A program made the translations under genes and the position numbers. Positions 1-29,656 of a stretch of 64,000 bases of DNA are shown here, in pieces. The stretch's first letter is position 1, and the number at the start of each line of letters is the position of its first letter. Source of the DNA: Lingula anatina (lineage: Eukaryota; Animalia; Brachiopoda); contig CM120643.1 in assembly GCA_051362555.1 (NCBI GenBank), positions 25,734,848 through 25,798,847 of the forward strand. The letters are read 5' to 3'. Below the pieces are notes generated by a model. It saw only the letters and a program-made list of their open reading frames with translations. It was not told where the DNA came from and ran no database searches.

Positions 1-100
1 GGTTTCAGGCCAACAACTGGTTTACTGCTCTGTTCACAGAGATCTTCACTGACAGTAGTCTGGCCATCTCTCACACAAACTGCTGAGACAACCTGCTCTC
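1..100 (-). CDS. ADAMTS16/18: ADAMTS16/18-like exon 19 (cut by window edge), TSP1 repeat
   Basis: GEQVVSAVCVRDGQTTVSEDLCEQSSKPVVGLK; acceptor tacag in the expected phase 1. Confidence 0.9.
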
Positions 101-661
101 CTGTATTAACAAGTCATAAAATATATATATATATATATAACAGGCCTTATCACCTACTCTCCTATATTAATACGTAACAGACATGACAGGCCTTATTACT
201 CTTTTCACAGTCAATCTTTTTCTCAGATCTACATGATTATGAGCCTATAAAGCAAACTTGCAACCTAATGCTTCCTTGTTTAGAAATATTATTTCAATTG
301 AAGTGTTTGACATGAACATTACTTAAGCTTTAACTTGTTATTTTTATTTGTTACATACTTCAAATAGTAAAATAATACCTCTTTTGGCCAATGTGTCACT
401 GAATTTACAAAACTTATGTTGACAATAAATATTCAGTATATCAACCAAAATCAAAATCTGGATTTATGCTGGAATGAACCAACGAGATCCCTGACATAGA
501 TAGAGATTTTTGCCTATATCATAAGCCTGAGTAACAAGAATTCAGGAAATGTAAAGATTGCTCTATATCAGGGGTTCAAAAGGGGGGGGTCAATACCCAA
601 GCATCCTGATTTACAGATAAATCTGAATGGCTTTTGTATCTTATGCGAAAATAGCACCTAC

Positions 662-815
662 CTCCAGCACAAGTGCGAGAACATGGTGCTGTCTCCACTC
701 TCCAGCTGTACCCTGTGGAGGTCTGGATGTTGTTATTGTGAACCTCAGGAAGTCGGGAGGCCAGTGGTGACCTATACTGCCACTTCACACCAGGATTGGG
801 GCCTCTGATCATCAC
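662..815 (-). CDS. ADAMTS16/18: ADAMTS16/18-like exon 18, spacer end and start of C-terminal TSP1
   Basis: VMIRGPNPGVKWQY..YSWRVETAPCSRTCAG; tccag / gtaggt. Confidence 0.94.
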
Positions 816-1202
816 CTGGAGTGGAAAAGTTTGGATATTACACATGTATTGTCTGTTTAAAAACTACAGTTGAATTAATTTGTAGCAATTTTTACATCTT
901 ATTGTGCATGATTCTTTAAATTTACACTGTTTTCCAGTAATCTGTTGATTTCATATCTATTTCTGCTGCAAATAATCATTTAAAATCCTGTCCAATTTTC
1001 ATAATAAGATTGAAAAGCAGGAGGTGAAGGGTTTCCATTGTTTTTATAACTCCATGTACCAGGAGTCAAGGGCAATACTGACAAATGAGACATGAAAGAA
1101 TTCTACAATAGTGTATTATTTGCATCATGGTATATTTCCCAACATTTATGTATCTAAGCTGCAAAGAAAAAAGAAAAAAATTATTCATTATATTTTCCTC
1201 AC

Positions 1203-1447
1203 CATAATGACCAAATCCTCAGTGATGGGCCCTTTAGCCTCTAATCTCTCAGGATCTTTGAAAGACCTGCTGTAACTGAAGGTGGTGCCACCAAACTGAT
1301 AGTTTCGAGACCACTGGATCTGCCAATCCCCATTGAGGTAGTACTTGCCGCGAAGGTTACGCACAGCTAAAAAACTGGCTGAGATCTGCAGCATATGAAT
1401 CTCTATTTCCATTGAGCCTTTGGGGATTTTGGTCACAAAATGGTAGG
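1203..1447 (-). CDS. ADAMTS16/18: ADAMTS16/18-like exon 17, spacer domain
   Basis: YHFVTKIPKGS..FLAVRNLRGKYYLNGDWQI..GGTTFSYSR..ERLEAKGPITEDLVIM. Confidence 0.96.
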
Positions 1448-1721
1448 CTGAGGGAGAAAAATTAGTTGTTGAATAAGATTTACCTTAGGTAAACATAGAT
1501 GCATAGTTTTTTATATAAATTTAAAAAAAAAAAAAAAACACAAGATATGTAGTTTAAATCTTCAAAATTTCTATTCGGATTTTGGGACCTAAAGGACAAA
1601 CGTCTGAGTTTCATGTCCTGACTTGACCTAGTTAGGTGTTAGCATATTTAGGGCAACTTGACATTGAAAGTAATTGAAGTGGAGACAATTGACATTTGGC
1701 AGTGTGCTACATATGATAGCA

Positions 1722-1870
1722 ATGTGTTAGATGTGGCATGGCACTGTTAGATGTGACACAGTGTGCTAGATGTGACAGAAATGTGTTAGATGTGACAGAG
1801 ACTTGTATGGCATGGTATTGTTAGATGTGGCATAGTGTGTTAGATGTGAAACAGTATGTTAGACAGAAAT
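1722..1870. repeat. Degenerate ~20-bp minisatellite (core tgttagatgtg)
   Basis: About 7 imperfect copies in the intron after ADAMTS exon 16. Confidence 0.8.
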
Positions 1871-1915
1871 GCATTGGTTGTATCTGGTATTTTACAATAC
1901 AAATGTTCAACTTAC

Positions 1916-2039
1916 TATGAGGTCTGGCAGGTGTGGTAAAAGTCCCTATGACTTTATCACAAGTGTTGTTCTTTCCTCCACATATGCCACAGCTGTCTTC
2001 CACAGCTCCAGAGTCCAGAATACCATCACAACCAGGGAT
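1916..2039 (-). CDS. ADAMTS16/18: ADAMTS16/18-like exon 16, end of cysteine-rich domain and start of spacer
   Basis: IPGCDGILDSGAVEDSCGICGGKNNTCDKVIGTF; acceptor tttcccag (present in 12 tandem copies), donor gtaagt. Confidence 0.93.
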
Positions 2040-2633
2040 CTGGGAAATATATCACATATTACATAAAAACTTACATCACAACCAGGAATCTGGGAAATAT
2101 ATCACATATTACATAAAAACTTACATCACAACCAGGGATCTGGGAAATATATCACATATTACATAAAAACTTACATCACAACCAGGGATCTGGGAAATAT
2201 ATCACATATTACATAAAAACTTACATCACAACCAGGAATCTGGGAAATATATCACATATTACATAAAAACTTACATCACAACCAGGGATCTGGGAAATAT
2301 ATCACATATTACATAAAAACTTACATCACAACCAGGGATCTGGGAAATATATCACATATTACATAAAAACTTACATCACAACCAGGGATCTGGGAAATAT
2401 ATCACATATTACATAAAAACTTACATCACAACCAGGGATCTGGGAAATATATCACATATTACATAAAAACTTACATCACAACCAGGGATCTGGGAAATAT
2501 ATCACATATTACATAAAAACTTACATCACAACCAGGGATCTGGGAAATATATCACATATTACATAAAAACTTACATCACAACCAGGGATCTGGGAAATAT
2601 ATCACATATTACATGAAACTTACATCACAACCA
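2024..2633. repeat. 50-bp tandem repeat, 12 copies plus a partial, spanning the exon 16 splice acceptor
   Basis: Unit catcacaaccagggatctgggaaatatatcacatattacataaaaactta starts at 2024, 2074 ... 2574; copies nearly identical. Confidence 0.98.
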
Positions 2634-2845
2634 TATTGTAAAATAAGAAAAGTAAGCTTTGGCTTTCAAAAGTTATTTTCTATCACTGGATAAGTGTAAA
2701 TATTACTAATAATTAGGTATTTTATAAAAGTATATCTTTTCAACACCAAAATACACCACAACACATAAACAAATATATACACTTACCAAAGAATAATATT
2801 TTTTTAAAATTGTAAATACAACCTGAAAGACACATGTGTGAGAGG

Positions 2846-2988
2846 CTTACCCTGCATACCCCCTGTACACAGACCCCCCTGCTTACCCTGCATACCCCCT
2901 GTACACAGACCCCCCTGCTTACCCTGCATACCCCCTGTACACAGACACCCCTGCTTACCCTGCATACCCCCTGTACACAGACTCCCTG
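2846..2988. repeat. 36-bp tandem repeat, 4 copies, spanning the exon 15 splice donor
   Basis: Unit cttaccctgcataccccctgtacacagacccccctg; encodes GVCVQGVCRVSR in frame on the minus strand. Confidence 0.97.
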
Positions 2989-3089
2989 TGGGTTGTAGAG
3001 ACATTGAGTGCCATCCCCTGCCATGGTAGACATCTGATAGTAGAAGGAATAACGCTTGGCCTTGCAGTACAGCTTACACTGGTCTTCCT
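2959..3089 (-). CDS. ADAMTS16/18: ADAMTS16/18-like exon 15, cysteine-rich domain (first of four possible donors)
   Basis: EEDQCKLYCKAKRYSFYYQMSTMAGDGTQCLYNPQGVCVQGVCR; the donor gtaagc recurs at 36-nt intervals. Confidence 0.92.
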
Positions 3090-3454
3090 CTGAAGTGGTC
3101 ATCATGACATTTAGTTATTTGTAATGGCTAATAATAGGTATCTGAGGTATAGGTTCAACAATGCAGTAAAAACTGTTGAAATAATTCTCAAGCAATGCTG
3201 GCAACTGGTTATAGCTACAGTAACAAATATTTAATATTTTAGTCTTCAGACATGTGAGGACATTTTTTCTGTTGCATAGGTTAACGTGTAAATTTAACAC
3301 ATTCTTTTTTTTTTTGTTAAAAATCAGCAAAAATACTCATGAAAGGTGTGAGTAATTTGCATTTCAATGTTAAAGTATCATAAATATCTTATGAGGAACA
3401 AACTTTTAACCAAACAATTAGATTTGAGATACACTTTATTAAGAAGACATTTAC

Positions 3455-3563
3455 CTGGAACTTTTGTATATGGTTCCCATTTGTAGTACCATCCCCTGAA
3501 CTTGATGTAGTTACGTGAGGTACACTGTAATGCCCTATAGGTGGAGCCAATAGTTGGACACCT
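3455..3563 (-). CDS. ADAMTS16/18: ADAMTS16/18-like exon 14, cysteine-rich domain
   Basis: RCPTIGSTYRALQCTSRNYIKFRGWYYKWEPYTKVP; ttttcag / gtaaat. Confidence 0.95.
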
Positions 3564-4000
3564 CTGAAAAGACAAATTACATGTTCCTCATTACTTCTTA
3601 TAGGTGCACATTCATAATCATAACATTATCTAAATATCAAAAGGAGCAAATTATACCAATGTTCATAGCAATCTAGAAAAATATAGGAAATATGAAGGTG
3701 CAAAATGGTCATTTATATAAAATTCATATATTCTAAGTTATTTTGAAAACCATGTTCAAACACTCCTTTTATTCAAACCAATCAATTTTTGAAATCTATC
3801 AATTAGATCACTATAATATATTTCCTTACATGAACCCATGCAACTTAGAACCCATTCAGTTTAGAACCTTCGACCAATTTTCCTGAATATTACTTACAAA
3901 ACAATGTTATGAAGAAACATTTCATTAATTTCATTCGAACTTGGCAAGATATTACAATAATTTTCAAATAAAATTGATGTACCAGTATTCAGCCACTTAC

Positions 4001-4064
4001 CTCAGTATTACACAGTTGATACATTGTATCATTCCCAGGACATTGCTCCCCACCAAATTTGGGC
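4001..4064 (-). CDS. ADAMTS16/18: ADAMTS16/18-like exon 13, end of TSP1
   Basis: PKFGGEQCPGNDTMYQLCNTE; ttccag / gtaagt. Confidence 0.95.
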
Positions 4065-4231
4065 CTGGAAACAATTGGATCATATTTTCATAAACTGAAT
4101 AATATAAGGAAAAACAGAATTTAAGATTCAGTTATCATATGACTACTGTAACGCTTAACAAACAACATTCTGAAAAGTATATTTCAATGAAAAAAAAATT
4201 AATTTAAAAAAATTGCCCACGTCTTCATTTT

Positions 4232-4390
4232 CAGGGACAGATAGAGAAATATTTTCTGACTGTCTTCCAAATTATCTTTGTTGATTCATCCACCATTTTT
4301 GATTTTTCCGACAGAAAAAATAGATGCCCATACGTGCAAACTTGAAATATTCTTCCAGAAGACGGCCTCCACCCTCCCCTGAATTTCTAA
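4232..4390. mobile_element. Degenerate interspersed repeat, same family as 57162-57337
   Basis: Shares gtcttccaaattatctttgttgattcatcc..ccgacagaaaaa..ccagaagaYggcctcca..aatttcta with the second copy. Confidence 0.75.
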
Positions 4391-4420
4391 GAAGTACGCA
4401 TACAGTTACCCTCCACTCAC

Positions 4421-4569
4421 TTAGGGTTGTTGCAGTCCCTCTTCCTGAGCTGTACGCCACGCCCACACGTCCTGGAGCAGAGTGTCCAGGCTGACCAGTC
4501 AGACCACTGGCCATCTACGGACTCCGGCCCTGAGTCTCCCTCTGGTAAACACAGACCCTTCAGGCACCA
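4421..4569 (-). CDS. ADAMTS16/18: ADAMTS16/18-like exon 12, central TSP1 repeat
   Basis: [39 protein letters not shown] (WxxWxxW, CSRTCG). Confidence 0.97.
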
Positions 4570-4859
4570 CTGGAATATAGCAGCATTTCGTTACCCCATT
4601 GGGATTGTTAAAATCTCATTTCTTTATCCTTATACATGTAGTCAAGGCAGATGAAAGACATTGACTGAATTACAATATACAAAAGAAAGAGTAAATTTCT
4701 TACAGTTTTGTAACAAATAAAATACTCTTCCATGTCAATGCAGTTTGCACAGTCACATCGAAAAGTATTCCTTGCCAAGTAAAATATTATGATAACATGA
4801 CATTCACTTTAACACAGTGGCATTACTGTATATGGCACAGAGGTATAACAACGCCATAC

Positions 4860-4955
4860 CTTTCCAGGTGCACATCTGGTGCCATCTGCAGCAGGTAGAA
4901 ACTTAGTTTCACACTTGTAACCCACAGTATGACACCACAGGTACTTACACATCTC
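4860..4955 (-). CDS. ADAMTS16/18: ADAMTS16/18-like exon 11, disintegrin-like domain
   Basis: EMCKYLWCHTVGYKCETKFLPAADGTRCAPGK; the CETKFxPAAxGT motif points to the ADAMTS16/18 clade. Confidence 0.96.
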
Positions 4956-5263
4956 CTGGAATGGACAATTGACTATTTTATAATATCTCATCAAAATATG
5001 ATAATTTCACTGTTAACAGACCATAATCACTCAATCAATCATCATTCCATTTTCACTGGTAAATAGTGATAGATTATTTCATTTTCCTTTATAGCATTAT
5101 ATTAACAGTTAACTTCATATAAAAGAAAGGTGATGTATTTGGTGAGTAAGGGAATGCTTCTTAAAGTCATGCTTTAATTCTTGTAAAAATTGGCTAATTT
5201 CTGCACCATAAAATGTAAATTCCAGTTCTAGATGACAAGTGGTAATAACATACACACACCTAC

Positions 5264-5420
5264 CCTACCAAAGTCAAAATTACAAAGACTCGCAGACGAC
5301 CCGAACTGCCACTTGCACTGAGTATCAGCATCGTACATTTGTCCCGGGAGCTTGTCTGGGAAACTGTAATCAGCCGCCATCTTGGGTTCATCTTCACTGA
5401 GGCAGCGTGACTGATGTGAC
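5264..5420 (-). CDS. ADAMTS16/18: ADAMTS16/18-like exon 10, disintegrin-like domain
   Basis: CLSEDEP..YSFPDKLPGQMYDADTQCKWQFGSSASLC, close to the vertebrate ADAMTS16/18 sequence as recalled. Confidence 0.96.
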
Positions 5421-5660
5421 CTAGAGGATGACATCATCATCACATACCCATCATTACTGTTTTAAAATAATCAAGTCACTATGACAATCGTCAAAGACCA
5501 GCTTAATTAATTTTTTGAAATTATAACAATAACTGATATATCTTATAAACTTATTTCCAAAGTATACCACAATATTAGCAAAACAAATTCTACATAGATA
5601 TAATGTCTTATGACCAGACTAAAAAACAGACAGACATTGGACAAACAGAAAAACAGTCAA

Positions 5661-5701
<41 letters not shown>

Positions 5702-5777
5702 CATATAGACATACAGTAAAACACTGATAAATGTGCACACACACGCACACACACAAACACACACTGAAGCTACTCAC

Positions 5778-5918
5778 TGTAGGAATTTCTGTAGATATTC
5801 CCTGCTGCACACTGACCACTTGAACACCCCATCATTCCCCACTGACAGCGTAGGGGACATGATGCCACCATCATACTTGCTGCAGTAGTTCCCCTCTCCA
5901 TCATGGACCATCCCAAGA
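5778..5918 (-). CDS. ADAMTS16/18: ADAMTS16/18-like exon 9, end of zinc motif and Met-turn
   Basis: Completes HEVGHNLGMVHD (HExxHxxGxxHD), then GIMSP Met-turn and WSVCSREYLQKFL. Confidence 0.97.
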
Positions 5919-6118
5919 CTGGACATTTATAAAATATTATGTGGTAATTTCTCACAATTTCTCACTAATATTACGAAAGAAAAGCACAAATAATCAAAAT
6001 CTACTAGAACCCCCATTTCCCATCATTACTCATTCTGAACGTTTAAAAAAATCCAATAATACTAGTACTGTAATTGCCTGGCATTGTTCAAGTCTTTTTC
6101 CATTTTAAATACACTCAC

Positions 6119-6224
6119 TTATGTCCCACTTCATGTGCAATGGTAAAGGCTACCCCCAGTCCTGTGTCTTCATTGATGGTACAGCTACGGCGGCTACTGC
6201 ACATACCCTGGATGGGGGCAAAAC
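6119..6224 (-). CDS. ADAMTS16/18: ADAMTS16/18-like exon 8, first half of zinc-binding motif
   Basis: [35 protein letters not shown]; acag / gtgagt. Confidence 0.97.
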
Positions 6225-6461
6225 CTGTACGCAAAAATTACACAGTATGGATGAGCAGACCAGGCACTCGCCACACCTTTTTTTCCGATAATCTAGTGCT
6301 TAATGCAACCAATGGTTTCTCCCTCATGCATTTGATTTTTGACACAATTGTGTGAGCCTCTATTAAATCTAAATCTAAATCTTCCACAATTTAATCTATG
6401 ACATAGGAGAAGGAACCTATTTCAAATCTACATCTTCACAAATTAAGATAGATCAACTTAC

Positions 6462-6621
6462 CCAGAGTATCACAGGGGCCGTACTCATTGACACAGAGAT
6501 CTGTTGCAGTCAGCAGTATGGCATGATCATGGTGGAAGTTTTCTCTGTGCTTCAAGGCTGACTGCCACTGACAGAAACTATCCAGGGTTTTCTCTGCATT
6601 TTTGCCTATCCTCAACCCAGC
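6462..6621 (-). CDS. ADAMTS16/18: ADAMTS16/18-like exon 7, reprolysin domain
   Basis: AGLRIGKNAEKTLDSFCQWQ..HHDHAILLTATDLC..PCDTL; ttag / gtaagt. Confidence 0.96.
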
Positions 6622-7044
6622 CTAATAGTAGAATACAAATAAATTTAGTCAATTATCAAAGGATTTCATCCACTGTGTAGTTCACTATGGAACCAGATAT
6701 ATACTTCTTTTCACAGAAAGGGTTAAAATATGGCTTAGCATTGAAAAGGTTTTATCCTAATGAAATAATCATGTAACTAAGCCAAGGGAAAAGGCGGGTA
6801 TCCAACCACCAAACTTTGTAAATGTCCCCATGAAAAGTATACATTTTTATAGGAAATTGGTCTTCATTAATGCTTTCTAAAAACTCACAATTTTTCAAGA
6901 TAGGAATATTACATTGTTTGATAAAGAATACTTTGATATTCAGCCATCTTTTCCAAAGTTTTTTTTTACACTAATCTAATTCATTAGTTTTCATTAATCT
7001 GACAAGCCAAATCTAATATTTATAAACTAAGATGATCCACTTAC

Positions 7045-7128
7045 CTCATCTCCCTCTAGTAATACTAATGCTGTAAGGACTATATTAATCTTCTCTCCTA
7101 TACTGTTATCATGGAATAACTTAGAGAC
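7045..7128 (-). CDS. ADAMTS16/18: ADAMTS16/18-like exon 6, reprolysin domain
   Basis: VSKLFHDNSIGEKINIVLTALVLLEGDE; tttcag / gtaagt. Confidence 0.95.
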
Positions 7129-7380
7129 CTGAAACAAATGTACAAACAATATAAACATAACATCATGCAGATTTACCTGAATACTTAAACACAGTAAACA
7201 ATGCCGTTATTGTCTAATACTGAAATTATTAAAATATGTACAAAATAATACAAAAAATTACAATAAAGAATATTGTTTTGTATGATTGTACTGGTAATAT
7301 GTATAATTAAACTAAAATTATATTTATATATATTCAAATATATACAAAATATAAATTCACAATTTCATTGATTTATTTAC

Positions 7381-7658
7381 CATATTTAACACTGTGAGGG
7401 TATAAGTAGTAACATTTTTATCGCCATGTGCATCTAGCATGTTTTTGTCTATAACCACAAGGGTTTCCAAATTCCTCAACTTTTCCTTATTCTTTCCATC
7501 TTTTACACGACGCTGATGCTGATGGTGACGATGACGTGCATATAATGCTGTTGATCTCTTATATCTTTGGTTTTTATGAATGAGATGATTTTCTTTATCA
7601 CCGTCATTATCTTTTTTGTCTTTTGGTTGCTGGAATGGCTGTAGTTTATTGTCTAAGG
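7381..7658 (-). CDS. ADAMTS16/18: ADAMTS16/18-like exon 5, furin site and start of catalytic domain
   Basis: RYKR furin motif, then RNLETLVVIDKNMLDAHGDKNVTTYTLTVLNM; tttacag / gtaaat. Confidence 0.95.
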
Positions 7659-8868
7659 CTGTAAAAAATGACAAAATGACAAAATGCCCTTTGTGACACT
7701 TCTTTGTTAATTAAAAGTTATTAGATATATTTTTGTCCCAAAACTTCAACATGCAATTTTACAGATAGCAAACTTCTTTACAGAATCCATGCACCACTTC
7801 TTTAAAATTGACTTTAAATTTCTAAAACTATAAGTCAATTAGATTTTAAAGGAAGAAATCAAAGCCTTTGAGCAAAGAGACAGCAAGCTTGACACAAAAT
7901 GCTTCAAACTCGCATGTTCCTCAACAAACACAGTCATATACAAATAAACACAATGGAAGATTGCAGTAGTTGAGACAGTCACTAGAACAATACAACACAA
8001 CTGCTACTTTCTCAACTACAGCAACTGAACACAAGAGTTCTATTAAGAGGCAGATTCAGCCATCACACCCAGAGTTTTAGAGGTCAATGAAAACTAGCCT
8101 CTCTAATATCTAAGACACACTAGTAATGACTGAGGAATGCTGATAGGAGAGAGCAGTTTTCAGTGTCCTCTGAAATTCAGGATGATCCACACACAAACAG
8201 ACCAGTCTCTCAAAAAATGCAGTACCAAAAGCATCATCTTAAATTCTGACTTATGAGAACAGAAGGCTATATCAATCTGTCTTTTATAATGTTCACAATG
8301 AGTTTTCTTCTTGTAATTTTTTCCTGGACAGGTATCTGTTGGGCACTAAATTATACACTGTAATATAGACACCTTTTCAATGTCAAATGTGTCATCATAC
8401 ACCAAAGAGTTACCTTTCATAATACAGTGTTTGTTATTTTAACTTTTTAACCTCTAATATCAGTGATCATTAGCTGGGTCTAACACACCCAGAGGGAGAA
8501 AAGGGGCAGGGTTCAGTTTACAATAAATATTAGTCTACATGCTGAAAATATGTGCCTTGATATAAATACATTATTTTGGAACAACATTAGAAGGTTGCAA
8601 CTAATTTCCTTATTAATTTTTTTCACAGGGGATATAAAACATGAATGAAGAGATGATATGTTCTGCTCTGGCAAATATAACATTTACATTTTCAACAATA
8701 AATGGTTCATTATTACCATTTCTTTAATCACAATGACAAAGAGAAGTGACAGAGCCATCCTTCCTAATGATAGTGTACCATCCAGGTATACAGTACTTTA
8801 AAATCATTCAGAATCACAAAGCAAGTCATCCTCTTTAAATCAAATAAATAAAAAAGTAACTCCCCCCA

Positions 8869-8871
8869 AAA

Positions 8872-8910
<39 letters not shown>

Positions 8911-8915
8911 AATAA

Positions 8916-8962
<47 letters not shown>

Positions 8963-8963
8963 A
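8869..8963. repeat. (TAAA)n microsatellite
   Basis: Long, slightly interrupted TAAA run. Confidence 0.95.
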
Positions 8964-9050
8964 CTCAGAAGAATTGCTCTCCATACTAAAAAATCAACAT
9001 AACAGCCCACAATTAAGACTTAACCCTTGAAATCAATGTTAACAACTCAC

Positions 9051-9261
9051 CTTTAAGATGATCACTATTATTATTGCTATGACACAGGTGGTTAGTCCCA
9101 TGTGAGGAAGATGAATTAAGAGAATGGAGAGATGACTTCATATATATAACATGTGGGTAATGAGAAGCGCTGGCATGACTTGTATTCACAAAATGGCGAT
9201 GGAGATGAGATGGGAGAGGCTGGACGATATACTCAGCCTTGGAGGTGCGGAGAATCCCCAT
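9051..9261 (-). CDS. ADAMTS16/18: ADAMTS16/18-like exon 4, prodomain
   Basis: MGILRTSKAEYIVQPLP..HVIY..HLCH; tttcag / gtgagt; phase 0 to 1. Confidence 0.93.
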
Positions 9262-11709
9262 CTGAAATACAATTGAGAAACATATATGTATTAAACCAGA
9301 CATGAGCCCAGGTTTTAGAAAAAAAAAACTATGAACATTTATTGTGGAACCAAACAACTTACGTAAATGTTTGGGGCTTTAATTACTCTTGGGTCATGTA
9401 AAAAAGCTGAATTCTGTAATTCTGCAGAAAAAGCTCATGTCTGTTAAATGTACAGACTTTGAGTTGCATAACACATACATCACCAATCCATAAACAGGGA
9501 TTCAATTGGGTTGAAATAAAATGTTTTGAAATAGAAATATATATATATATATATATATATATACACTTGATAAAGATATCACTGACGAACCAACCTATTA
9601 ATTCATAAACACTTAATTGAAATGACGCAATTAATATAACTACATAAAACTAATGAAAAATGGAACTTAAGTTGGCAAAGCATCTAGGTATTAGATGTGC
9701 CTTTTTCAAACACACTAGCATCCTTGTTAAAATTTAAATTATTCAAGATAAACGCAGTACCACAAGGCTTTTTATCAGTTTCATAAATCATTGGTCAGTT
9801 AAATGTTTAAAAAAGTAAAACTGTCAAATGATTTTCAATGGATTCTGGACTAAAACAAACATCTTCTATCCCAGTGTTACTAAACACACCCTATCTTTTT
9901 CCCTAGCTTGAATTCCAGAACATAAAACCTATTGAATGACCAGTTAAGTCTCTGAGATCATAGGCTAATCAATCAGCCAATAAACCAATAAATCCTTCAA
10001 AAAGTACCCTTCAATCAAAGGGCAGATTTAAGTGGTCCTCAATTAAATCCCCTCTGGCTTCAAGTAGGCACTAGAATCTGTAGTCATAACTGTGCCCTTG
10101 GTCGTGTTTGGAAGAAATACAACACAAACGATAACAGGTTCAAAAGAAACCCAGTGACATAGAAGTGAACCCTGTGGTATTGATTGGAAATACACACTCA
10201 GGAACCACTTAGGATTTCAAAATGTCCATAAATTTTAGCATGTGGTTTATTTTGAGAGCTTATTAATATAATTCATATGCCATCTAACACTGTCTAGCAA
10301 TCTGTAAGCATTTTAGCTAGCACAGATAGGCCAGCCATGGAAAACGTCTGTTTTTTGAATCAAGGCCAAAAGCAGCAGACAGATATTCATGATGTTTCAA
10401 CAAACAAATTCTCAAACATCCCATCTAAATTTAGCCTTGACGACACTGTTATCCTGTTGCCCCTTTCCTAGTGCTCAAGGCTTAAATTGTTACATAACTG
10501 CTCGAAAACACTTCTACAACTAATCAACGTGTTATGACTGCCTTAATTCCGCTGACAGGATCACCGCTGGAGTCACATTTGATGGGGAAACACAGACTCA
10601 AAATACTGCCCTGAAGGATGTAACGAATATGAGGTATCTTCTGAAATAACATGGCTATTGAGACCAATATTTTGATTACATTTTACTCTTGGTTGTCTCC
10701 TGTTTACGATAAACAAAGTTGTCCAATTTCGTTCTTTTTTATTTGACAGTGGAGTACTCAAAGTGTCCCTTTCTCTTTTACGCTAGAGAGTCAGTTTTTA
10801 CCAGAGATTATTTCATTATTCCCACTTTATTCAACATAATTTGAAGTTAAACACTATTCAACAGCTGAATGTTTTTATAAAGCACATATTATCTTTCTCC
10901 CAATTCTTTTTTTATTATCCCCTCTCCTCTTCTCTCTATCCATCAATTCTTAAACAACAGTCATTTTTCCATACATTATAAGACATAGTACCTGCAAAAT
11001 AATCTCACCTTCAATTTCCCAAAGCACATTTTCCTATAATTTCCAATCACCCAAATTATAATCTTGTCAAAAAATAGAGCTTTTAAGCTTCCATTGATCA
11101 CAAGGCAAAGATGTAAGATGTTCCATCAGAAAAAAGACCCTGCCCTGCCTCCAAATAATTGGTCTCCTCTTTATTCCTTGTTACCCTTGACCTCCTCTTA
11201 CATGTGAATAGGTTCAGTATACAGAGAATTTGACACATCAAAGGCAATTATATATTCTTAATGTTTAAATGATACTAGTTTTATATAGTTCACTTGTATA
11301 GTACCAAGTCTTTCAGTGCTTAGCTGCTCTTTGTTTACCACCCTTTAAAGTTAAGATTTGATGTGCTGGGTATTTCCTTCACAGCAGCTTTATTTTAAAT
11401 TCCCATCACTTAATTATCTTCATTCTAGAAATGTCTCCATAAAATACTCATCTTTACACACATCTCCCTGAAATAAATTATTCCAAATACTTACTCTTTT
11501 TTTTTTTTGGCATTGAGCAGAATACAGAAAAGCTGGTGATTATACAAGCACGGTGGAAACAACAGTAGGCATGTCAGTGTGTTAATCTGACTGTATTCAG
11601 CAAACAAAAAGTCCCTGTGGAGTAAGTGAGCAGTAGCTGTGAAGGGTCCCTTAAACTGAAAACACCCATGTGACATCACCAGTTGATCAGCTCACATAGG
11701 AACATCCAG

Positions 11710-11855
11710 GGCTCCGTATCTCGAAAGGTTCGCTATGTTGCGCACGTGCACAAGTGTCTCGATTCCATAACCGATTCTATTTCGAGATACGGGGCCATGG
11801 AATTGAGACACTTGCGCACATGCGCAACATAGCGAACCTTTTGAGATACGGAGCC
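11710..11855. mobile_element. 146-bp palindromic MITE, PIF/Harbinger-like, CAG TSD
   Basis: ~58-bp TIRs (ggctccgtatctcgaaaggttcgctatgttgcgca.. / ..tgcgcaacatagcgaaccttttgagatacggagcc), flanked by cag on both sides. Confidence 0.9.
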
Positions 11856-12192
11856 CAGGTCAGCTTTACACCTGAGCACACTAATTTTTTTATCCCAATT
11901 GGTCTGCTGCTGTCCTCCGATTATTAATAACTTAAAAGTACTCAACCCTGAATGCGAATTGAGAATTTTAGGTGTGAAATATAAACACCTTGTAGTGTTG
12001 AAAAAGAATCTCCCCAACATCCCACCATGAGGATACTGGAACAAAGCATTCTCAGTAGTGTGAAACAACAGTGCACAGTTTGGGCAGCCTATGTTGTTCA
12101 TTGTGGCACTGGGGACTTGGGTAATTTAGCGATAAATTACCAAATTATTTGCCCTGCAAGTCAAAACATACAACTGCTACTTGTGTGTTCTC

Positions 12193-12420
12193 TACAATGT
12201 ATCATGTTGTGATGGCTACAATATATCATTTTGTGATGATTTCAATGTATCATGTTATGATGGCTACAATGTATCATGTTGTGATGGCTACAATGTATCA
12301 TGTTATGATGGCTATAATGTATCATGTAATGATGGCTACAATGTATCATGTTGTGATGGCTACAATATTTCGAGCTGTGATGGCTACAATGTATCATATT
12401 GAAGGAATTGCAATGTATCA
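12193..12420. repeat. 24-bp minisatellite (tacaatgtatcatgttgtgatggc), ~9 copies
   Basis: Direct tandem copies; the source of three overlapping repetitive ORFs. Confidence 0.95.
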
Positions 12421-15400
12421 AATTAAAGGGTGTTTTGTGACTGAAAAAAATCAAATGACCTAATATGCCACATTTAAATAATTCAAATAAACGTTTATTC
12501 CTATTTTCCATCTTTCTCTCCATCTTTCTTCTTCATATGACTTTTGTGTTGCTTTGGTACTGTAACTTCCCAACTGGCAACTGAAGAACTCCTGACAGCA
12601 TGAAAATTAATTTAACATTCAATTTAACTCAAATTTCAAAATATAATTTCCATAACCTCTGTTTGCCTGGGGGTAGGTTTACTTGACATGATGTTTGACA
12701 TATTTCTTTGTCTTCACTGGCATATAAAGAAAAGTAATGGCATGAGATCAATTGACTATCTAAAGGTTAATATTAATGACATAATATACTGTGCTGCTTT
12801 CAAAATAAGTTGACAAGTGTAATGTACAAGTTAATAAAACAGGTCAGGAAGTGCAATACATGTACCATATGGCAATTTTTCAGAACTCATTTTTATAAAT
12901 GGTGTCATCAATTTCCAGCTCAGCAGGAAAATGGAAGATTTTGAATTTGTAAAAAAAAAAAAAAAAAAGGCTTATTGCTACAATGTGTTCAAAAATCTTG
13001 AAAATTTTGATAATGGAAATGGAAATATGAGCGCAACTATGTCAAACAAGATACATTAGAGAAGGTATAAAGTAAAAATCAAAAAGCAAAGAAATGAAAT
13101 AAATTAAGAACAAATAAGACTCCCCACCACGTTTCTAAATTAGCCAAAGCACCAAAGAAATCCAACTCTTCATCCTTCTGTGGGGTCAGCAATCCATCAT
13201 TAACACCCCGCCATCTAACTCCACATAACAACCTGTAACAGAAGACCACTCCACCTCAGTTCACCTGAGTTTAAATCAGTTTCTGGAAATTGATACGCAC
13301 AATGGAAACGATGGGCTAAAACCCAAGTTACTTTAGATGTCTGTGCAATCCTCCGTGCGGTCAGTTTCTGAGGTATAAGTGTGATTGTGTGGTTATTTTT
13401 GTTTCCAACGAACTGATCTAAAATGCTGATCAGATTTTAACCTTATCTTTGTGGTATTTATTTGTTTTGTGCAAAAAGGACTTTTATTTCACACATTGGG
13501 TGGAACAAAATAGCAAAGTATACTCTTCGGGGCAATGATTGTTGACCTTCCAGTGGGTAGGTAACAGGTGAAGAGTAATTAAATGTTAAAAGACTGGATG
13601 GGGATGTGGTCATTTAATTCTTATTTGTCCAATGAGAGAGAAAGAGAGATTTTATTAAAGGGCAATAAGTTCATAAGGGGAGAAAAAAGAGTAAAAGTGG
13701 GAACTGAAAACAATTTTAGTTTTGAAGACAGTGCAGTAGTTAAGTTATGACATCTTCTCCTGACCTCTGAATGCACTAGAAGTTTGCAGTTATGATTAAA
13801 GGCCATGTTTTACACCAAAATTTGGATAACTCCCCATGTTTTCCTTTTTAACATCAAGTTTGATCATGTTCACTGTCAATCATGTCTGCAACTGATACAA
13901 GGGACTTCCTACATACTGGCCAGCTGAATTTTATAACCAGTTCAAAAAGATACAAGTGATCCAACACTGTGCCATGCAGGTTTTGTATTGTTCTGCTAAC
14001 AAAAACAGTTTCTTATTTGTTTTCATATTTTTTTATAATTTCATTCTTCCCTTTAAACAGTATCAAAATAAAAAGAAAACTTTCCTTGAGATAGAAGTAA
14101 TATGGCTATTTGCAAACTACCATCTAGGACAAGATAATAGTACACACCTTACTGCCCTGCATTGTACCTTTTTCTTACATGCTTTAAATAGTTCATAAAT
14201 ATCTCTTAATAATATCTTAATACTGCACTCCTGTGGTTGTCAGTAGTCCATGTGTTTTAATTTACTTTTAATTTTTTTTTTTTTTTTTGTTGATGAAAAT
14301 CTTTGACCACTTAACCTGCTTGACCATTGTGTTGATGTATAACTTCCATACACTGACCAGCTACTTTTTGTCTGTTTTTTTTTCTAAACCTGGTGCATTC
14401 CCACAGTACTACTTTGTTCAAATATAAATGTACTATATGTAATAAAAATTAAAGCATGCCATAAGATATACAAACATATATACATACAGATATATAAATC
14501 ATTCAACTCATCGTTCAACCTTTGTTCAACTTTTTCACAAGTGCATCTACATGTAACAATTACAAGGTGATGTTTTCTAGCTGTTTCTCTTTCTCATTTC
14601 CTGCAGATTTTTTGCTTCTCATTTCCTCCAGATACCACTGTCTTCTCCATATAGGTATAACTTTTCTCATACCATAATTTGTTACATATACATTAACAGT
14701 TCATCACATGCCTAGCTTGATAGAGCAAAAACCAATGCATCATCAATAGCACACAAAAGGGGGATAGTAAGGGTGCTGGTCCCTGTACCAATTCTCAAGT
14801 ACAATTTTAATAGATATTTAGTGACTTCCTGAGTCCGGAGGTTACCAGGAGAGCATCTCTGGTGGCCGAGTAAGTGACAACTCCACACAGTGATTATCAT
14901 GGTTGATAGTGGAGTCTGTGGCGTCTCTAAGCTGATAGTACATCACCTGTGGCTGACGTTTTAACCTGGCAGGACGTCCCCCGGCAAAGATCTAGGTCTG
15001 ATTTTGTGGTTACTTTCTTTCTGATGTGTACAATGTGTAGAAAAAGACTGTACTTATAAGGTTGAAGCAGGATGGAGGGGCAGATGTATTCAGATAATTC
15101 TGTCATCTGGATCTACAAGACGATGGTCTTCAGAATGGCTAGAAAGTGATCGTTTAGGTTTTCCAGAATGAAGTCCATTTTTTTTTTTGCAAATTAAAAA
15201 GATATTAAGAACTATAATAGCAAGGGGAAGGGGGAGGCACAAACGGAAAGATGACTGCCCCCTCTCACATACTAATACTTCTATATATCCTCAATCTGTC
15301 TGTGCATTATCCAAAACCCCATCAGTGAATATATACATACTATAACATGTACAGTTCACAACTAATATCAGTCCATCTACCAAATTCTTTGCTAGAATTA

Positions 15401-18192
15401 TGCCAATGATAATACATTCAAGGAAAATGAACATGATAACATTGCACAACAGTCACAATTAGCATTCCTAACACATTGTAGCTATATACCAAATATTTGT
15501 GACAAGAACCTTTTATGTACCAAATAGAACCATTTCATTAAAAAAAAAAGATCCTAAAGAAGGCAGAAGTTGGTAAGTTCCATGAAAAAACAGCTCTGTG
15601 CCACACATGCATGCACGCACATATGCATCATGCAAGCACACACACACACACATGAATCATAGCCATCACAACTAACATAATGTATAACTATCTCACAAAA
15701 CCATTAAAAAATATTCAATTACAGTTCCACATCTTACAAGAAAAAAACTTCTCAAAATACAGTCACAATACTGCGTCATCCAAGCCAGTCAACTGTACTG
15801 AATCTTTTCTTCGTTGTTTATACTTCATAAAAAAGCACACGCTGTCTGCCTTCTTCTGGTGTCGCGGCCAATCAGCAACTTAACACTCAATGTGAAATCC
15901 GCCACAAATCAATGTTTTCAGTTATCATAGCTAATTATGTGTCTCAGTTTGTTGTTGGCCCTGAGTGCCTAAAACAACAACCCTTGGCAGTGGCGGTTTG
16001 TGGTGTGGTGTGATTGTTGTGCAGGCGATGGCAAGTTAAAGTCAACTTTTGATTTTGGAAACAGAATCAGGAACCCCAAGGCCATTTGGCAACCAGGGTG
16101 TTCCAGTTTAGTTTTTCCTCTTTTTTTTTCAGAAGACAATGGCTCCATGCTGCCCAACTAGCCTTCAAGTGTTCGTACTATACTTAACTGAAAGGTATTA
16201 CTATAACTTTTAGTCCTGCTTTTAAAACTGGAATTCTTTTGAATCTTGTTGGATTATTTAGATTTTAGTTTTTGAACTTCACCTGAAAATATTACATACT
16301 GTATTACAATATGTAAAACAAAACCATTATCATCCAAGACCAGCAATTACATCAAAACGGTCAGCCTTAATATGGGTTTTATATGAAAAGTGATTTTCAT
16401 ATATGAGCTAAGCATTTATTGATGCTACTGAGAGGCCTGTCACTAGTTCTTCATTTCAGGAAGTGCAAAAATGGTAAGCGCACACAGACTCCTTCATTTT
16501 GTTTGTTTTTTTTCCCAATTTTAAATGGCATATCAAAACTACTTTTACTCGACAGCAAGTTCTTGAAATCATTTCAGATGAAGGAGTATTTTGATTATAT
16601 AACTTACCTAACACAATGTATTGTTTAAAAAATTGAACCCTCATATCCAGTAAAATAGTTCTCACATTCCTGAATTGCGTGTGCAGCACTGTTGTTTTAA
16701 ATTCCCCACATTAACCTTTAAAATATTTTTTAGTTTTGTCTCTTCAGGCTACAAGATGTACAGTTCACTTTCTTTTTTTCTTTTAGAATTAACATTTTAG
16801 TACAAGAGGGCCTCCTAGCATTATAAGAAGAAAAAATCTATAATATCAAAATAACTCAGGACTACACAATCATGTAATTTGACATAGTGGCCACCATAGT
16901 GCTCCAACCAATATCTTCCTGGATCATGCCATACTGCATAACTCCTCATCTCATATCCTTCAGAAATTGTGTAAAAGGGGACATTTCTTTCCATTTTTAC
17001 TTCTGAACTTGAATCCTATTTCATAGGTAACCTCCCCCCTATCCACCCTTCCCCTGCCCCAAGTTCTTTTCACATTTGTTGCAAAAGTCAACAGATTTTG
17101 AAACAGAAATGATGCCTTCTACCTTATCTTTTTTTTTTTTTTAAATCCTTTTTTTATCAAGAAAAAGAAAAAACACTACATAAAATAGCAATGGTCACAT
17201 ACCCTAAACAAACTTGTCCAGATAAAGTGCTGTTAAGATATATAACACAGAGCTTTAGTTTAAAAATCCATAATCAAAATCAAACCCTTTAACAGTTGTT
17301 TATTGTCTCTTCATAATGTCCACACATTCAACATTCACATGTCCATAAAACCAACTGAACCAGTCACCGTGGAATAAATAACCAATTCATAGAGACTGAC
17401 ATAAAATCAACACTGTCTCCCTACTTCCCCTCACTGCCAATACTACTGCTGTCTTTATAATGATGATGACAGATTCATTCACAATTAAGACTAAGTAAAG
17501 AACATCAGGAATGAATAAGCTAAAAAGTCAGACAAAGAAATAGCCAACATATTAGAGAAACAACCCCAAATCAGACCAAATAAACAATATAATAAACATA
17601 ATAAATAAACAAAGTCAAAATAAATATCCAATAAATCAAATCAAATATCAGCGCTAACGAGGAGCTGATAATGTGATTTTTTTCCTGTCTTAAAACATCA
17701 AAGAGTTCAACCAGGTATTCATGGAGGGTGGGTTAGATTAAAAAACCAAATAAAGACAATTTAAGGGCACACTTGTTGAAAAGTTTTGCCTTGCATCCAG
17801 ACTTGAGACAACTGTTTATCCTAACAGAGATAAACTACAAGATTTAGGGACCAGAGCCGCACAACATTAGCCTGGAGTGCTTTTACAATCAAAAGACTTT
17901 GGGATGGAAAGTTGGCCTTTATTCTTGCACCACAAATTATTATCTGTCCTTGCATGTGTGTGCAAGCAACCAGTTGACAACGTACGTAATTCTTTCCCTG
18001 CCTTAAGTTTGTGGTCCCTTGCATGTGTGAAAAACAGTGTGCACGAGAATTTACACTTGCCCCTGTTTTGCACTAAATTAAATGCATGTGGGTGATTAAT
18101 ATGAAATTTTAATCTTTTTGTTTTTTTCATAATTTCTCATTCTGAAGTAAGACCAGAGCTAAGTCACATTGTCTACAATCAGTGCTACTTAC

Positions 18193-18524
18193 CATACCGT
18201 TACATACACTGACAGCAGCATGAGATTCAGTTGAGTGATGAGACAAAATAGTCCCTGTATAAATGCACTCCACCATGGGAGAAGCTGGGACCCTCTGCAT
18301 TTCTTTCCTTCTGTGCTTTTTTCTGTATATTTGAAAGCTGGGAGCAAAAAGTTTATAATTTGGTTGTAGCTGTACATGGAACTGTTCTCCAAATGCTGTA
18401 ATATTGTAATACAGTGATGATGTCGCCGATGAGGTGCTTCGCCTATTGCGTTGCTGTGGAGACAGGTCATGTGACACATACTGGCCATAGTGGTCTACTT
18501 GGAATGGTAGTGTAACTTCGAAAT
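18193..18524 (-). CDS. ADAMTS16/18: ADAMTS16/18-like exon 3, prodomain (Pep_M12B_propep)
   Basis: DFEVTLPFQVDHYGQYVSHDL..RNRRS..LYYNITAFGEQFHVQLQPNYKLFAPSF..CIYTG..AAVSVCNGM, a typical ADAMTS prodomain. cag acceptor, gtaagt donor. Confidence 0.95.
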
Positions 18525-19263
18525 CTGTGAAAAAATGTAATATTTATTAAAATTCACAAAAGAAAGATATGCTAGTATACTACTCATAAACTCAAAAAAT
18601 ACTAAATTGAACACTAGATGTTAAGAGCTAGGGAATCTGTACATCTTATTTGTATATCATGTTACATGATTGTATGAAAAATTTGGTACTAAGTTTGTAA
18701 ACAATACATTATCATTGTTTATAAAAGTGAAATGTAAACCATCTCAGGTAAAAATGTTCAAATAAATTAATGTGCAATGTTTCAGACGATGCTTAAAGAA
18801 ATAGACACAAAATTCTTAAGGTTGTAAATTTGATTGTAAATTTTATTCTTGTTATATCCATGGACATCTATCAATTTATGCTTTCCACCCATGTTGTGGC
18901 AATTTTAGGTCTCTGTAATAAACGATAAGGAAAAACTCCTGCACTGGATTTAACATCCAAATCTCAGTGGTAAATGACAAAAGGATCATTCAACACAACA
19001 GACAAAGACACATGGCACCCATAAGGCAAAGACAACCAGTGGGTATCTTCACTACAAACTGAGCTGTGGAGAGAAAATAATCATAAAAACAGGGGGTATT
19101 CTCCCATTATTTCCTTCTTCAATAATAAAACCATACAAGTTCAAACACAGGTCATCATTGTTTCAGTCATAAAAAAACTGAGATAATATTTTGCTGGTTA
19201 AGGGATCTTGGATATTAACGAAAAAGTCCAAAACTAATGCAGCTAATGAAATTTCCTATTAAC

Positions 19264-20780
19264 TTAAAGAAAAGGTCTAGCAAGCCAAACAATTTTTCAA
19301 AGTTTGTAGTCACAGTGTAACACGAGTGACGTAATATCAGCGTTTTGAGGCTAAAATTGTCTTTTTTTTAATCAAGAATTTCTCTTAAACAAAAAGCCCT
19401 ATTAATACGATTGAAATAGCTATCTAAAGGTTAGCACAAACTCCATTAAACTCTGTCAGGATTTTCTCTTTTTATTTTTACTTTTGATTTTATTTTGATA
19501 AAACGTGAATTTTACGAAATACATATGGACCTTCCAATTTCAGTATTAATAACTTCAAAAATAAAAGGTCAATCCAAAAACCAAGACTCAGACGACTAGA
19601 TATTATACTGAAACAGAGACACATCAAATTTCATGTCAATCTGACAGTTACAGAATGAGATATGGGGATTGAAGTTTAGACTATGTTATCAATCTTCAAA
19701 GCTGAGAAATCGCTCCTAAACCATTTTGCTCAGGTAATTGGGCTATTTAAGCAAAATAATTGCACCTCCACCTTACCTGTTATCATCTTGTTGATCGGGA
19801 AGGTCTATACACCATTACGTGTTAAAATTGGGTTGTTTGTTTCTATCTAGATGCCAGAAAATCTTACTTTTGTACGCAAACTTATTCGTACCACGAAAGT
19901 CGCTCTTCCCTGGGAAATGATTGACAGCTGAGTAGGTCTACCTACTCTCGTTTCACTGACGTAATTAATCATAATTGTGCCTGACGCAGTAGGAGTCTGT
20001 GCACTGTCTAGGAAGTGTCTAAGGAAGCGCTTACAAACAAAAAGAGGATTACTTGGTGTGCCAGCAGAGGACAATGCCACCCGTCGTGCATGGGCGCCGC
20101 TCTACACACCAAGACGCGAAAATTGAGAAAGTAAAGCAAGATTTACTCCGAGAAATGGCCGAATGTGGGTACGTATATGCCATGATGCCACAGAGTGCCA
20201 AGACCGTAATATGCGAATTTGAAAATGTTTTGGGTGGCAATATTACTTTAAAACTTGCTTGCTATTACAATCTTTATTGTGCATAAAATGATTGCCTAAC
20301 GATTTTTTTCTGACAACCCCAGACGTTGTACGAATACTCAGCAGTTCAAGTGTGATCTCGAGTCTTTACCGCGGGGTTTCTCCATCCACCAGAAGCACTC
20401 TCTTTCAAAATTCTCTTGCTTTCCTCGCTCATCCGTTTTCTCACGTCTTTCTTTCTTCCCATGACTGTGCATATATCTGTGTTCTGCTTAGCTGGCGTAA
20501 GACTTATGAGCTGCCAGGACACGCGTAACAGCTTAAGAAGTTAGACAACCATTCTTGCCCCGCCCCCCATAGTAACGGTGCTTGACAACGGAGGCGGAGC
20601 CTAAAGCCTGCCACCCGTACCAGTCAGGACAGGTAGAAAAACTCGTCCAAATGCATATTTTTAGTCCGTGTTTCTCAAATATAACTTAATTGAGTATTAG
20701 ATACAAAATTGATTATTTCTAACGTATAAAAAACTAAAAATCGAGTTTTAGACGTATTTTTAATATCCTAGACCCCTTAA
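19264..20780. mobile_element. Putative ~1.5-kb non-autonomous DNA transposon flanked by TTAA (Kolobok-like)
   Basis: Left end ttaa-agaaaaggtctag, right end ctagacccc-ttaa (short imperfect TIR). The interior is much richer in CpG than the host intron and has GC boxes and short convergent ORFs. Confidence 0.55.
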
Positions 20781-20963
20781 ACACATCCCTCACTGTGAGG
20801 TAACCCCTGCGATATTGCCCCCCTGACTTTCACAGGTTACTGGAAACTCAGCACGCCTCTGCTATTTTTAGTATCAGGCTAGAGACATTCTGATAACAGA
20901 GGTGAGTTTACATTGACCTCTTGACACTCAGGGTGCTCTACTGTGACTGGTAAGTGAGACTAG

Positions 20964-21194
20964 GGGTGCGTTCACAATGAAACTATCGTATCAGATAGTT
21001 CAAACTGAAACTAACTCAGTCTCAGTTAAAAAAAGATGCGAAAAAGTTCCAGAAGCCCAACATACACAAAGGTTAACAACCCCCCTAGTTGCTCAAGGAG
21101 GTGTATCATTCTGTTAGCCTGATTGCATTCAACAAGGGTCTCCGCAGAGTTGGATCGTTCTATACAGCACCAAAATTTTATTGTGAATGCACCC
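20964..21194. mobile_element. Degenerate Harbinger-type MITE
   Basis: TIRs gggtgcgttcacaatgaaa / ttttattgtgaatgcaccc; TSD not preserved. Confidence 0.65.
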
Positions 21195-24140: not shown

Positions 24141-24495
24141 GAGAGAGAGAGAGAGAGAGAGAGAAAGATGGAAGAGATGGGAGGAGGGAAAGAGAAAGTG
24201 TGAAAGATAGGAAGAAAGAGAGATGAAGACAGACATTGAGAGAGAAAGGAAGGAGAAGAAGAAATAGACAGAGAAAGAGGAACAGACACACACACACACA
24301 TACACACACACACACACAGAAAAAGAGAGGTGAAGAAAGAGAGGAGAGAAAAAGAGATAAAGAGAGAGGTAATAATGAAAGAGAAAAGAGAGAGAGAGAG
24401 GGGGAGGGGAACTAACATGGGAATAAAACTAATATGGGAAAATAACAGACAGACAGACAGACAGACAGACTGACAGAAGTAGGAGGGGGAGGGGG
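24141..24495. repeat. Purine-rich (GA)n / (CA)n / (GACA)n low-complexity tract
   Basis: Compound microsatellite sequence. Confidence 0.9.

Positions 24496-25218: not shown

Positions 25219-25223
<5 letters not shown>

Positions 25224-25272
<49 letters not shown>
25224..25272. repeat. Poly(A) tract of about 49 nt
   Basis: Uninterrupted A run. Confidence 0.9.
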
Positions 25273-25274
<2 letters not shown>

Positions 25275-26003: not shown

Positions 26004-26172
26004 CAGGCCCGTAGCCAGGGGGGGGTTCGGGGGGTTCGAAGGAACCGCCCCTTTTGCTGAGAAAAGGTCCACTCTGGGTAAATTTTGGTCTAGGTACATA
26101 AAGTTTTTATGGGAAAAGGTCCACTTTTTCAGAAAAAGAACCCCCCTTTTGAAGTTGCTGGCTACGGGCCTG
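26004..26172. mobile_element. 169-bp MITE with 15-bp perfect TIR and 5-bp TSD (hAT5-like)
   Basis: ttgct|CAGGCCCGTAGCCAG...CTGGCTACGGGCCTG|ttgct. Confidence 0.9.
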
Positions 26173-29563: not shown

Positions 29564-29569
29564 TCTCTC

Positions 29570-29656
<87 letters not shown>

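What the first reader, a model, noticed from the sequence alone, without database searches (positions are those of the whole stretch)
2024..2633. 50-bp array that reads as 11 extra acceptor / 15-nt microexon / donor cassettes
Seen: on the coding (minus) strand each unit is gtaagtttttatgtaatatgtgatatatttcccag (35 nt, consensus GTAAGT start and the real acceptor at its end) plus ATCCCTGGTTGTGAT (15 nt, IPGCD, the first five codons of exon 16). There are 12 near-identical acceptors (AG at 2040, 2090 ... 2590). Read-through from an upstream acceptor hits TAA in the second unit, but splicing at the GTAAGT after 15 nt keeps the frame. Two copies (2074, 2224) share a variant, ATC>ATT, which is synonymous. 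An 11-bp microhomology (tggttgtgatg) between intron (2623-2633) and exon explains the duplication. Inference: the array could give variable IPGCD microexon inclusion, stepwise re-splicing, or NMD-coupled control of ADAMTS level. A 35-nt intron is below the usual metazoan minimum, so 85-nt or 135-nt skips are more plausible.
Basis: partly seen in the sequence, partly recalled or inferred. Interest (0 to 1): 0.85.

Follow-up and report, generated by a model that had tools for sequence, protein, structure and literature searches.

The report
Splice-site "mirage" repeats in ADAMTS intron
The end of one intron and the start of the next exon of an animal ADAMTS protease gene are copied twelve times in a row, with a second such repeat at the other end of the same intron; the few RNA reads found skip all the extra copies, so this is likely a harmless, variable-length repeat of a kind already known from lancelets.

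Summary
The array is real: 12.2 copies of a 50-bp unit holding the intron-15/exon-16 boundary of an ADAMTS18-like gene. It occurs in 3 of 3 DNA runs laid, at roughly 3-4x, 8-9x and 8-11x flank depth, so it likely varies in copy number. RNA does not support the microexon reading. In the one run with junction coverage, 6 of 6 reads join exon 15 straight to acceptor 2040 with no extra 15-mer. No read lay inside the array in 5 of 5 RNA runs. Counts are small: inclusion below about 40% is not excluded. The 35-nt spacers are likely too short to splice, carry no UGC motif, and the protein spacing at the junction is fixed in 35 of 40 homologues. This fits the known "mirage" minisatellites of amphioxus (PMC3087553) and human F7/CBS junction repeats. 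The scan has noted this repeat type on other DNA several times. Verdict: new member of a known kind, low interest.

The parts
2024..2633 (-). 50-bp acceptor-spanning minisatellite, 12.2 copies; unit = 35-nt intron end + first 15 nt of exon 16
   Evidence: repeated contig in DNA runs X3, X1, X2
2040..2041 (-). Authentic acceptor AG of intron 15 (last of 12)
   Evidence: 6 of 6 X15 junction reads; 4 of 4 annotated proteins; junction fit 29/29 aa
2075..2589 (-). Eleven 15-nt exon copies (IPGCD), each between a copied AG and a GTAAGT; decoy microexon-like cassettes, not seen in RNA
   Evidence: sequence; no RNA depth
2590..2623 (-). Most upstream unit, 34 nt, differs from the other eleven; same form in run X1, 35-nt form in run X2
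2623..2633 (-). 11-nt word shared with exon 16 nt 6-16; likely seed of the duplication
   Evidence: role inferred
2845..2986 (-). 36-bp donor-spanning minisatellite, 3.9 copies; four GTAAGC donors at 2958, 2922, 2886, 2850, all in frame (each extra adds 12 aa with two Cys, no stop)
   Evidence: run X1 contig skips 72 nt = two units
2959..3089 (-). ADAMTS exon 15 (131 nt, cysteine-rich domain); first donor used
   Evidence: RNA
1916..2039 (-). ADAMTS exon 16 (124 nt; Pfam PF19236 weak hit, E 1.2e-4)
   Evidence: RNA depth 5-6 in X15
3..33860 (-). ADAMTS18-like gene, exons 1-19 of a 1229-aa protein (continues beyond the window start)

Best explanation
Intron 15 of this ADAMTS18-like gene carries a tandem repeat across each of its splice sites (12 acceptor copies, 4 donor copies), both likely variable-number 'mirage' minisatellites that are likely spliced out whole, first donor to last acceptor, leaving the normal protein. 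Origin (inferred): slippage or unequal exchange between an 11-nt word shared by intron end and exon start made a ~50-bp duplication, which then expanded and contracted. Site choice (inferred, exon-definition logic from general knowledge): only the last acceptor has a donor at a normal exon distance (124 nt). Each upstream copy is closed off 15 nt later by GTAAGT, giving an exon too short to define without microexon enhancers, while the spacers are too short to be introns. At the donor end the most upstream site is used, as in human F7.
For: RNA: 6 of 6 X15 reads crossing the exon-16 start stop at 2040 (bin depth 1.53 x 51 = 78 = 6 x 13) and their loose letters are the exon-15 end, agreement 0.99. 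These letters differ from donor 1 at two synonymous third positions; one (2989) is a DNA allele in run X2. One X16 read stops at 2959, donor 1 (read from bin depth). No RNA depth in the array: 2041-2100 in X12, X15, X18; 2540-2910 in X16, X17. Annotation: 4 of 4 cluster proteins join CVQGVCR to a single IPGCD. DNA: repeat-to-flank depth 8.2-9.3 (X3), 8.0-11.1 (X1), 2.6-4.0 (X2); X1 lacks two 36-bp units. Geometry: branch-point-like A residues lie 11-23 nt from the copied donor against about 50 nt needed in human systems (PMC6692369, passages); the smallest of this gene's 18 introns is 200 nt. No UGC in the unit. Three residues separate Cys and GCD in 35 of 40 homologues (5 did not match the pattern) and in ADAMTS13 chain 6qig_A. 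Precedent: BflGb6 acceptor mirage with 6 and 3 units on two haplotypes and regular splicing (PMC3087553, passages).
Against: Junction evidence is six reads from one run, possibly three fragments, plus one read inferred from depth. X12 had no read on exon 16 and X17 none at the donor, so they say nothing on the junction. The genotypes and tissues of the RNA animals are unknown; they may carry short arrays. By mismatch count alone the loose letters fit donors 3/4 as well as donor 1 (2 differences each); donor 1 is preferred for the reasons above. The copied donor is of ordinary strength (outscores 10 of 18 real donors in a small in-gene matrix), and the 15-nt and 36-nt pieces both keep the frame, so leakage would give protein. 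UGC is not strictly needed for SRRM4-type inclusion (bioRxiv 2024.09.17.613571, passages). Contig depth is a rough copy measure only. The homologues are nearly all vertebrate ADAMTS18 and not independent.
Confidence: 0.82

Rival explanations
1. The cassettes leak: a minority of transcripts include one or more IPGCD microexons (via 85- or 135-nt skips) or use a downstream donor, giving in-frame Cys-bearing inserts in the cysteine-rich domain, in proportion to copy number or in one tissue.
For: All inserts keep the frame with no stop. The copied donor scores mid-range. Human 6-16 and CBS junction minisatellites use two pseudo-donors besides the real one (PMC1557585 Introduction). 66% of intron-modifying tandem repeats in one human survey also had the alternative transcript (PMC2812944, passages).
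Against: 0 of 6 junction reads; zero RNA depth on the extra donor units in X16 and X17; no UGC; fixed spacing in homologues; frame-keeping has a 1-in-3 chance per array.
Confidence: 0.11
2. Upstream acceptors are used often but the products are destroyed by NMD, so array length tunes ADAMTS mRNA level.
For: All 11 upstream acceptors lead to a premature stop. Steady-state RNA would hide such products. The acceptor is the weakest of 18 in this gene's own matrix (0.7 bits).
Against: No array read in 5 of 5 RNA runs; a rough bound is under 5% retention for a 12-copy allele or under 18% for a 4-copy allele at steady state. Amphioxus mirages are reported not to give aberrant mRNA (PMC3902484, passage).
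Confidence: 0.05
3. The copy number 12, or the array itself, is an assembly artefact.
For: Eleven units are 98-100% identical; no laid contig spans the array.
Against: The unit is a high-depth repeated contig in 3 of 3 DNA runs from 3 studies, with both array ends joined to the right flanks. Two units carry a private variant.
Confidence: 0.02

Closest known systems
Amphioxus 'mirage' minisatellites (globin BflGb6, BflGb9; Adh3; troponin C; PGBD5). Seen: passages of PMC3087553 and one passage of PMC3902484. The Adh3 paper (PMC117041) was not held and is known to me only through these.
   Same: Tandem copies of intron 3' end plus exon 5' start (BflGb6), AG/GT kept in the copies, copy number differing between haplotypes (6 vs 3), regular splicing reported; both 5' and 3' boundaries can be duplicated; PGBD5 has repeats over both kinds of site.
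   Different: Here both ends of one intron are arrays, and each acceptor unit happens to close with GTAAGT after a frame-keeping 15 nt. The organism was not identified; it is likely not a vertebrate (inferred from 45-53% identity to vertebrate ADAMTS18).
Human F7 intron-7 37-bp VNTR and related donor minisatellites (6-16, CBS intron 13, LMNB2, PDGF). Seen: abstract and Introduction of PMC1557585.
   Same: Polymorphic array whose first unit spans the donor; identical pseudo-donors follow; the most upstream is used. Direct match to the 36-bp array.
   Different: F7 unit holds only 4 exon bases; here extra donors would add 12 aa in frame. The main 50-bp array is acceptor-side.
Human CBS 844ins68. 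Seen: passages of PMC2630376.
   Same: Duplicated intron 7/exon 8 junction; the distal site is strongly favoured and normal mRNA results.
   Different: One duplication, not an expanding array; no donor closing the copied exon piece is described in the passage seen.
SRRM3/4 (eMIC)-dependent neural microexons. Seen: passages of bioRxiv 2024.09.17.613571.
   Same: 15-nt, frame-keeping piece between AG and a good donor.
   Different: No UGC, no inclusion in the reads seen, no conservation, flanking spacers of 35 nt.

Membership tests
Mirage minisatellite | Tandem repeat whose unit spans an exon-intron boundary of the host gene | tested here: met
   for both arrays
Mirage minisatellite | Copies keep AG/GT splice signals | tested here: met
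   12 identical acceptors, 12 GTAAGT, 4 GTAAGC
Mirage minisatellite | Copy number differs between haplotypes or individuals | tested here: met
   Depth ratios about 3-4, 8-9, 8-11 vs 12 in the window (rough); 72-nt skip in X1 for the 36-mer
Mirage minisatellite | Regular splicing of the host mRNA is kept | tested here: met
   6 of 6 junction reads in one run; no array reads in 5 of 5 runs; minor forms not excluded
Mirage minisatellite | Boundary unit left out of homogenisation | tested here: inconclusive
   Unit 1 differs in the window and X1 but has the common form in X2
Mirage minisatellite | Somatic length instability (reported for Adh3) | not testable with these tools
   needs single-molecule reads from one animal
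SRRM3/4 (eMIC) microexon | Short, frame-keeping exon with AG and donor | tested here: met
   15 nt, phase 0, open
SRRM3/4 (eMIC) microexon | UGC near the 3' splice site (74-79% of human cases) | tested here: not met
   0 TGC in the 35-nt spacer
SRRM3/4 (eMIC) microexon | Inclusion in mRNA | tested here: not met
   0 of 6 reads; tissue unknown, so neural inclusion is untested
Recursive splicing (ratchet point) | AG directly followed by GT (definition recalled, from no call) | tested here: not met
   AG and GT are 15 nt apart
Intron gain by tandem duplication | Duplicated segment is spliced as a new intron of workable size | tested here: not met
   35 nt with donor-to-branch distance 11-23 nt; no such joint in RNA

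The most novel reading that the evidence does not exclude
One intron with variable repeats at both ends acts as a genotype-dependent combinatorial switch: up to 4 in-frame donors times optional IPGCD microexons give a ladder of Cys-bearing inserts in the ADAMTS cysteine-rich domain in some tissue. Or, the copied GTAAGT is what silences each upstream acceptor, so this array is self-muting and can expand at no cost, a natural test of exon definition with 12 identical acceptors.
Probability: 0.08. Interest if true: 0.6.

Novelty: new member of a known kind. Interest (0 to 1): 0.2.

Why it matters
As it stands it is a tidy extra example of a known repeat type, with population and RNA evidence that it is tolerated. 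Its use would be as a natural substrate: alleles with about 3 to 12 identical acceptors and 2 to 4 identical donors on one intron allow a direct test of how the spliceosome picks among identical sites, the acceptor-side question that F7 answered for donors. If minor in-frame forms were found and regulated, it would show a microexon array being born from a polymorphic repeat.

Tried and rejected
No whole genome was held, so I could not count such arrays genome-wide or test whether two arrays on one intron is beyond this genome's background; a crude post hoc estimate for both units covering a splice site is 0.002, but three minisatellites cluster within 1.3 kb, which suggests local instability. 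The look-up of sequencing runs listed no indexed RNA holder; this is not evidence either way. My first exon-boundary script failed on an indel and its output was discarded; one search replaced it, but its frame test started one base off, and one search corrected that. RNA folding gave nothing that separates the last acceptor from the copies. A mobile-element origin of the units found no support inside the window: neither unit matches elsewhere in it. No related-species DNA was available, so the ancestral single-copy state and the age of the 11-nt word are inferred only; an alternative, that this word is the stump of an older unit, is not excluded. Two papers were not held (PMC1783408, PMC117041). 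I saw no report of both ends of one intron being arrays in the listings and passages from searches; that is a thin search. No supplements were read. The scan held no note on this genome or sequence.

Full report
Observation. Tandem Repeats Finder gives a 50-bp array of 12.2 copies at 2024-2633, 98% matches, score 1192. On the minus strand there are twelve acceptors ending at 2590 to 2040 in steps of 50. Each of the first eleven is followed by 15 nt encoding IPGCD and then GTAAGT; the twelfth continues as exon 16. Nine of eleven full units are identical and two carry a synonymous C>T at 2237 and 2087. The most upstream unit is 34 nt, not 35. The 11-nt word at 2633-2623 equals exon 16 nt 6-16; at the other 17 acceptors the longest such shared word is 4-8 nt.

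Host gene. A spacer-domain exon found one cluster of four proteins. Mapping them gave 19 exons from 33860 to the window start with GT-AG junctions; 17 of 18 junction peptides match P0004 at 29 of 29 residues and one at 27. Exon 15 is 3089-2959, exon 16 is 2039-1916, intron 15 is 919 nt, phase 0. Introns range from 200 to 14083 nt. Most of the 40 other hits, the best included, are named vertebrate ADAMTS18, at 45-53% identity over residues 640-860 for the top 35. All four cluster proteins join CVQGVCR to one IPGCD; these are gene models and only weak evidence.

A second array. The same intron has a 36-bp array (3.9 copies, 2845-2986) across its donor. It gives four GTAAGC donors at 2958, 2922, 2886 and 2850; each later one would add 12 residues with two cysteines and no stop.

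DNA from other animals. Three DNA runs from three studies were laid on the flanks. X3, which differs from the window at 1935 and 2019, has the 50-mer as an 80-nt contig at depth 969 against flanks of 104 and 118. X1 has it at 910 against 82-113, with the 34-nt first unit, and its contig skips 72 nt, two units, of the donor array. X2 has it at 121 against 24-47, with the 35-nt form next to the unique intron. Ratios are about 8-9, 8-11 and 3-4. Contig depth is a rough measure and one run may be the window's source, but the array exists in 3 of 3 runs and likely varies in length.

RNA. Five of nine raw-read RNA runs of the same species label were laid, 6-25% of each. In X15 six reads cross the start of exon 16. 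All stop at 2040 (depth 1.53 over 51 nt = 78 = 6 x 13) and their loose letters are the end of exon 15, agreement 0.99, with no 15-mer. The last seven letters differ from donor 1 at two synonymous positions and from donors 3/4 also at two positions; one of the donor-1 differences, 2989, is a DNA allele in X2, so donor 1 is the better reading. One X16 read stops at 2959, judged from bin depth. No run shows depth in the array parts laid, nor on the extra donor units. Against this: X12 had no read on exon 16, X17 none at the donor, X18's single read ended near 2029, six reads may be three fragments, and the animals' array genotypes and tissues are unknown. The 95% upper bound for inclusion is 39-63%, and the rough bound for array retention is 5% (12 copies) or 18% (4 copies) before NMD is considered.

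Why the copies are likely silent. Branch-point-like adenines lie 11, 16 and 23 nt from the copied donor, while about 50 nt is needed in human systems and 35 nt abolishes assembly (PMC6692369, passages); whether this species has the same limit is assumed. So neighbouring cassettes could not be joined; 85-nt skips could. The spacer has no UGC, a feature of most but not all SRRM3/4 microexons. In a small matrix from this gene's own sites the acceptor is the weakest of 18 and the copied donor is mid-range, whereas the matching spot in exon 16 scores below all real donors. The last acceptor is therefore the only one that opens an exon of normal size. That this is the cause is inferred. At the protein level three residues separate the Cys and GCD in 35 of 40 homologues, five not matching the pattern, and in ADAMTS13, so extra Cys-bearing inserts would likely be harmful. 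Re-splicing cannot be traceless here, since AG and GT are 15 nt apart.

Comparison. The scan's earlier notes pointed to amphioxus 'mirages'; I checked the paper. BflGb6 has tandem copies of an intron end plus exon start, 6 and 3 units on two haplotypes, with regular splicing by RT-PCR, and both boundary types can be duplicated (PMC3087553, passages). PGBD5, Adh and troponin C are further cases (PMC3902484, passage). Human F7 has a donor VNTR where only the first site is used, while 6-16 and CBS use two pseudo-sites as well (PMC1557585, abstract and Introduction), which keeps leakage plausible. CBS 844ins68 duplicates an intron/exon junction and the distal site wins (PMC2630376, passage). Four mirage features were met, one was inconclusive, one untestable. 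The microexon, ratchet-point and intron-gain tests each failed on a defining feature. The scan has similar notes from other genomes; they are unchecked and are not used as support.

Verdict. A real, likely polymorphic, likely silent pair of splice-junction minisatellites: new member of a known kind. Confidence 0.82; interest 0.2. The bolder reading, regulated in-frame inserts or a self-muting acceptor ladder, gets 0.08.

Noticed in passing
window 2845-2986: 36-bp in-frame donor array at the other end of the same intron; four donors here, two in DNA run X1.
   Followed up: yes
window 1703-1849: Degenerate 19-20-bp minisatellite in intron 16; third repeat within 1.3 kb, suggesting a local hot spot. 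X18 has two or three reads there on the opposite orientation.
   Followed up: no
window 2634-2660: Just upstream of the array a T-rich tract ends in ACAA, resembling a lost acceptor; the array's first 11 nt may be the stump of an older unit. Matrix score is low (0.4 bits).
   Followed up: partly
window 12192-12401: 24-bp x 8.8 minisatellite inside intron 3, not at a splice site.
   Followed up: no
window 47155-47241: Alternative first coding exon of isoform P0002, about 13 kb upstream of the P0001 start.
   Followed up: partly
window 61007-62494 (+) and 58314-59705 (-): Two long open frames (496 and 464 codons, stop to stop) with no Pfam match at E 0.01; possibly mobile-element remnants or an unannotated gene.
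   Followed up: partly
window 7380-7660 (exon 5): The His/Arg-rich stretch before the catalytic domain differs from P0001/P0004 by substitutions and a short in-frame indel, so the window is a different allele from those models.
   Followed up: no
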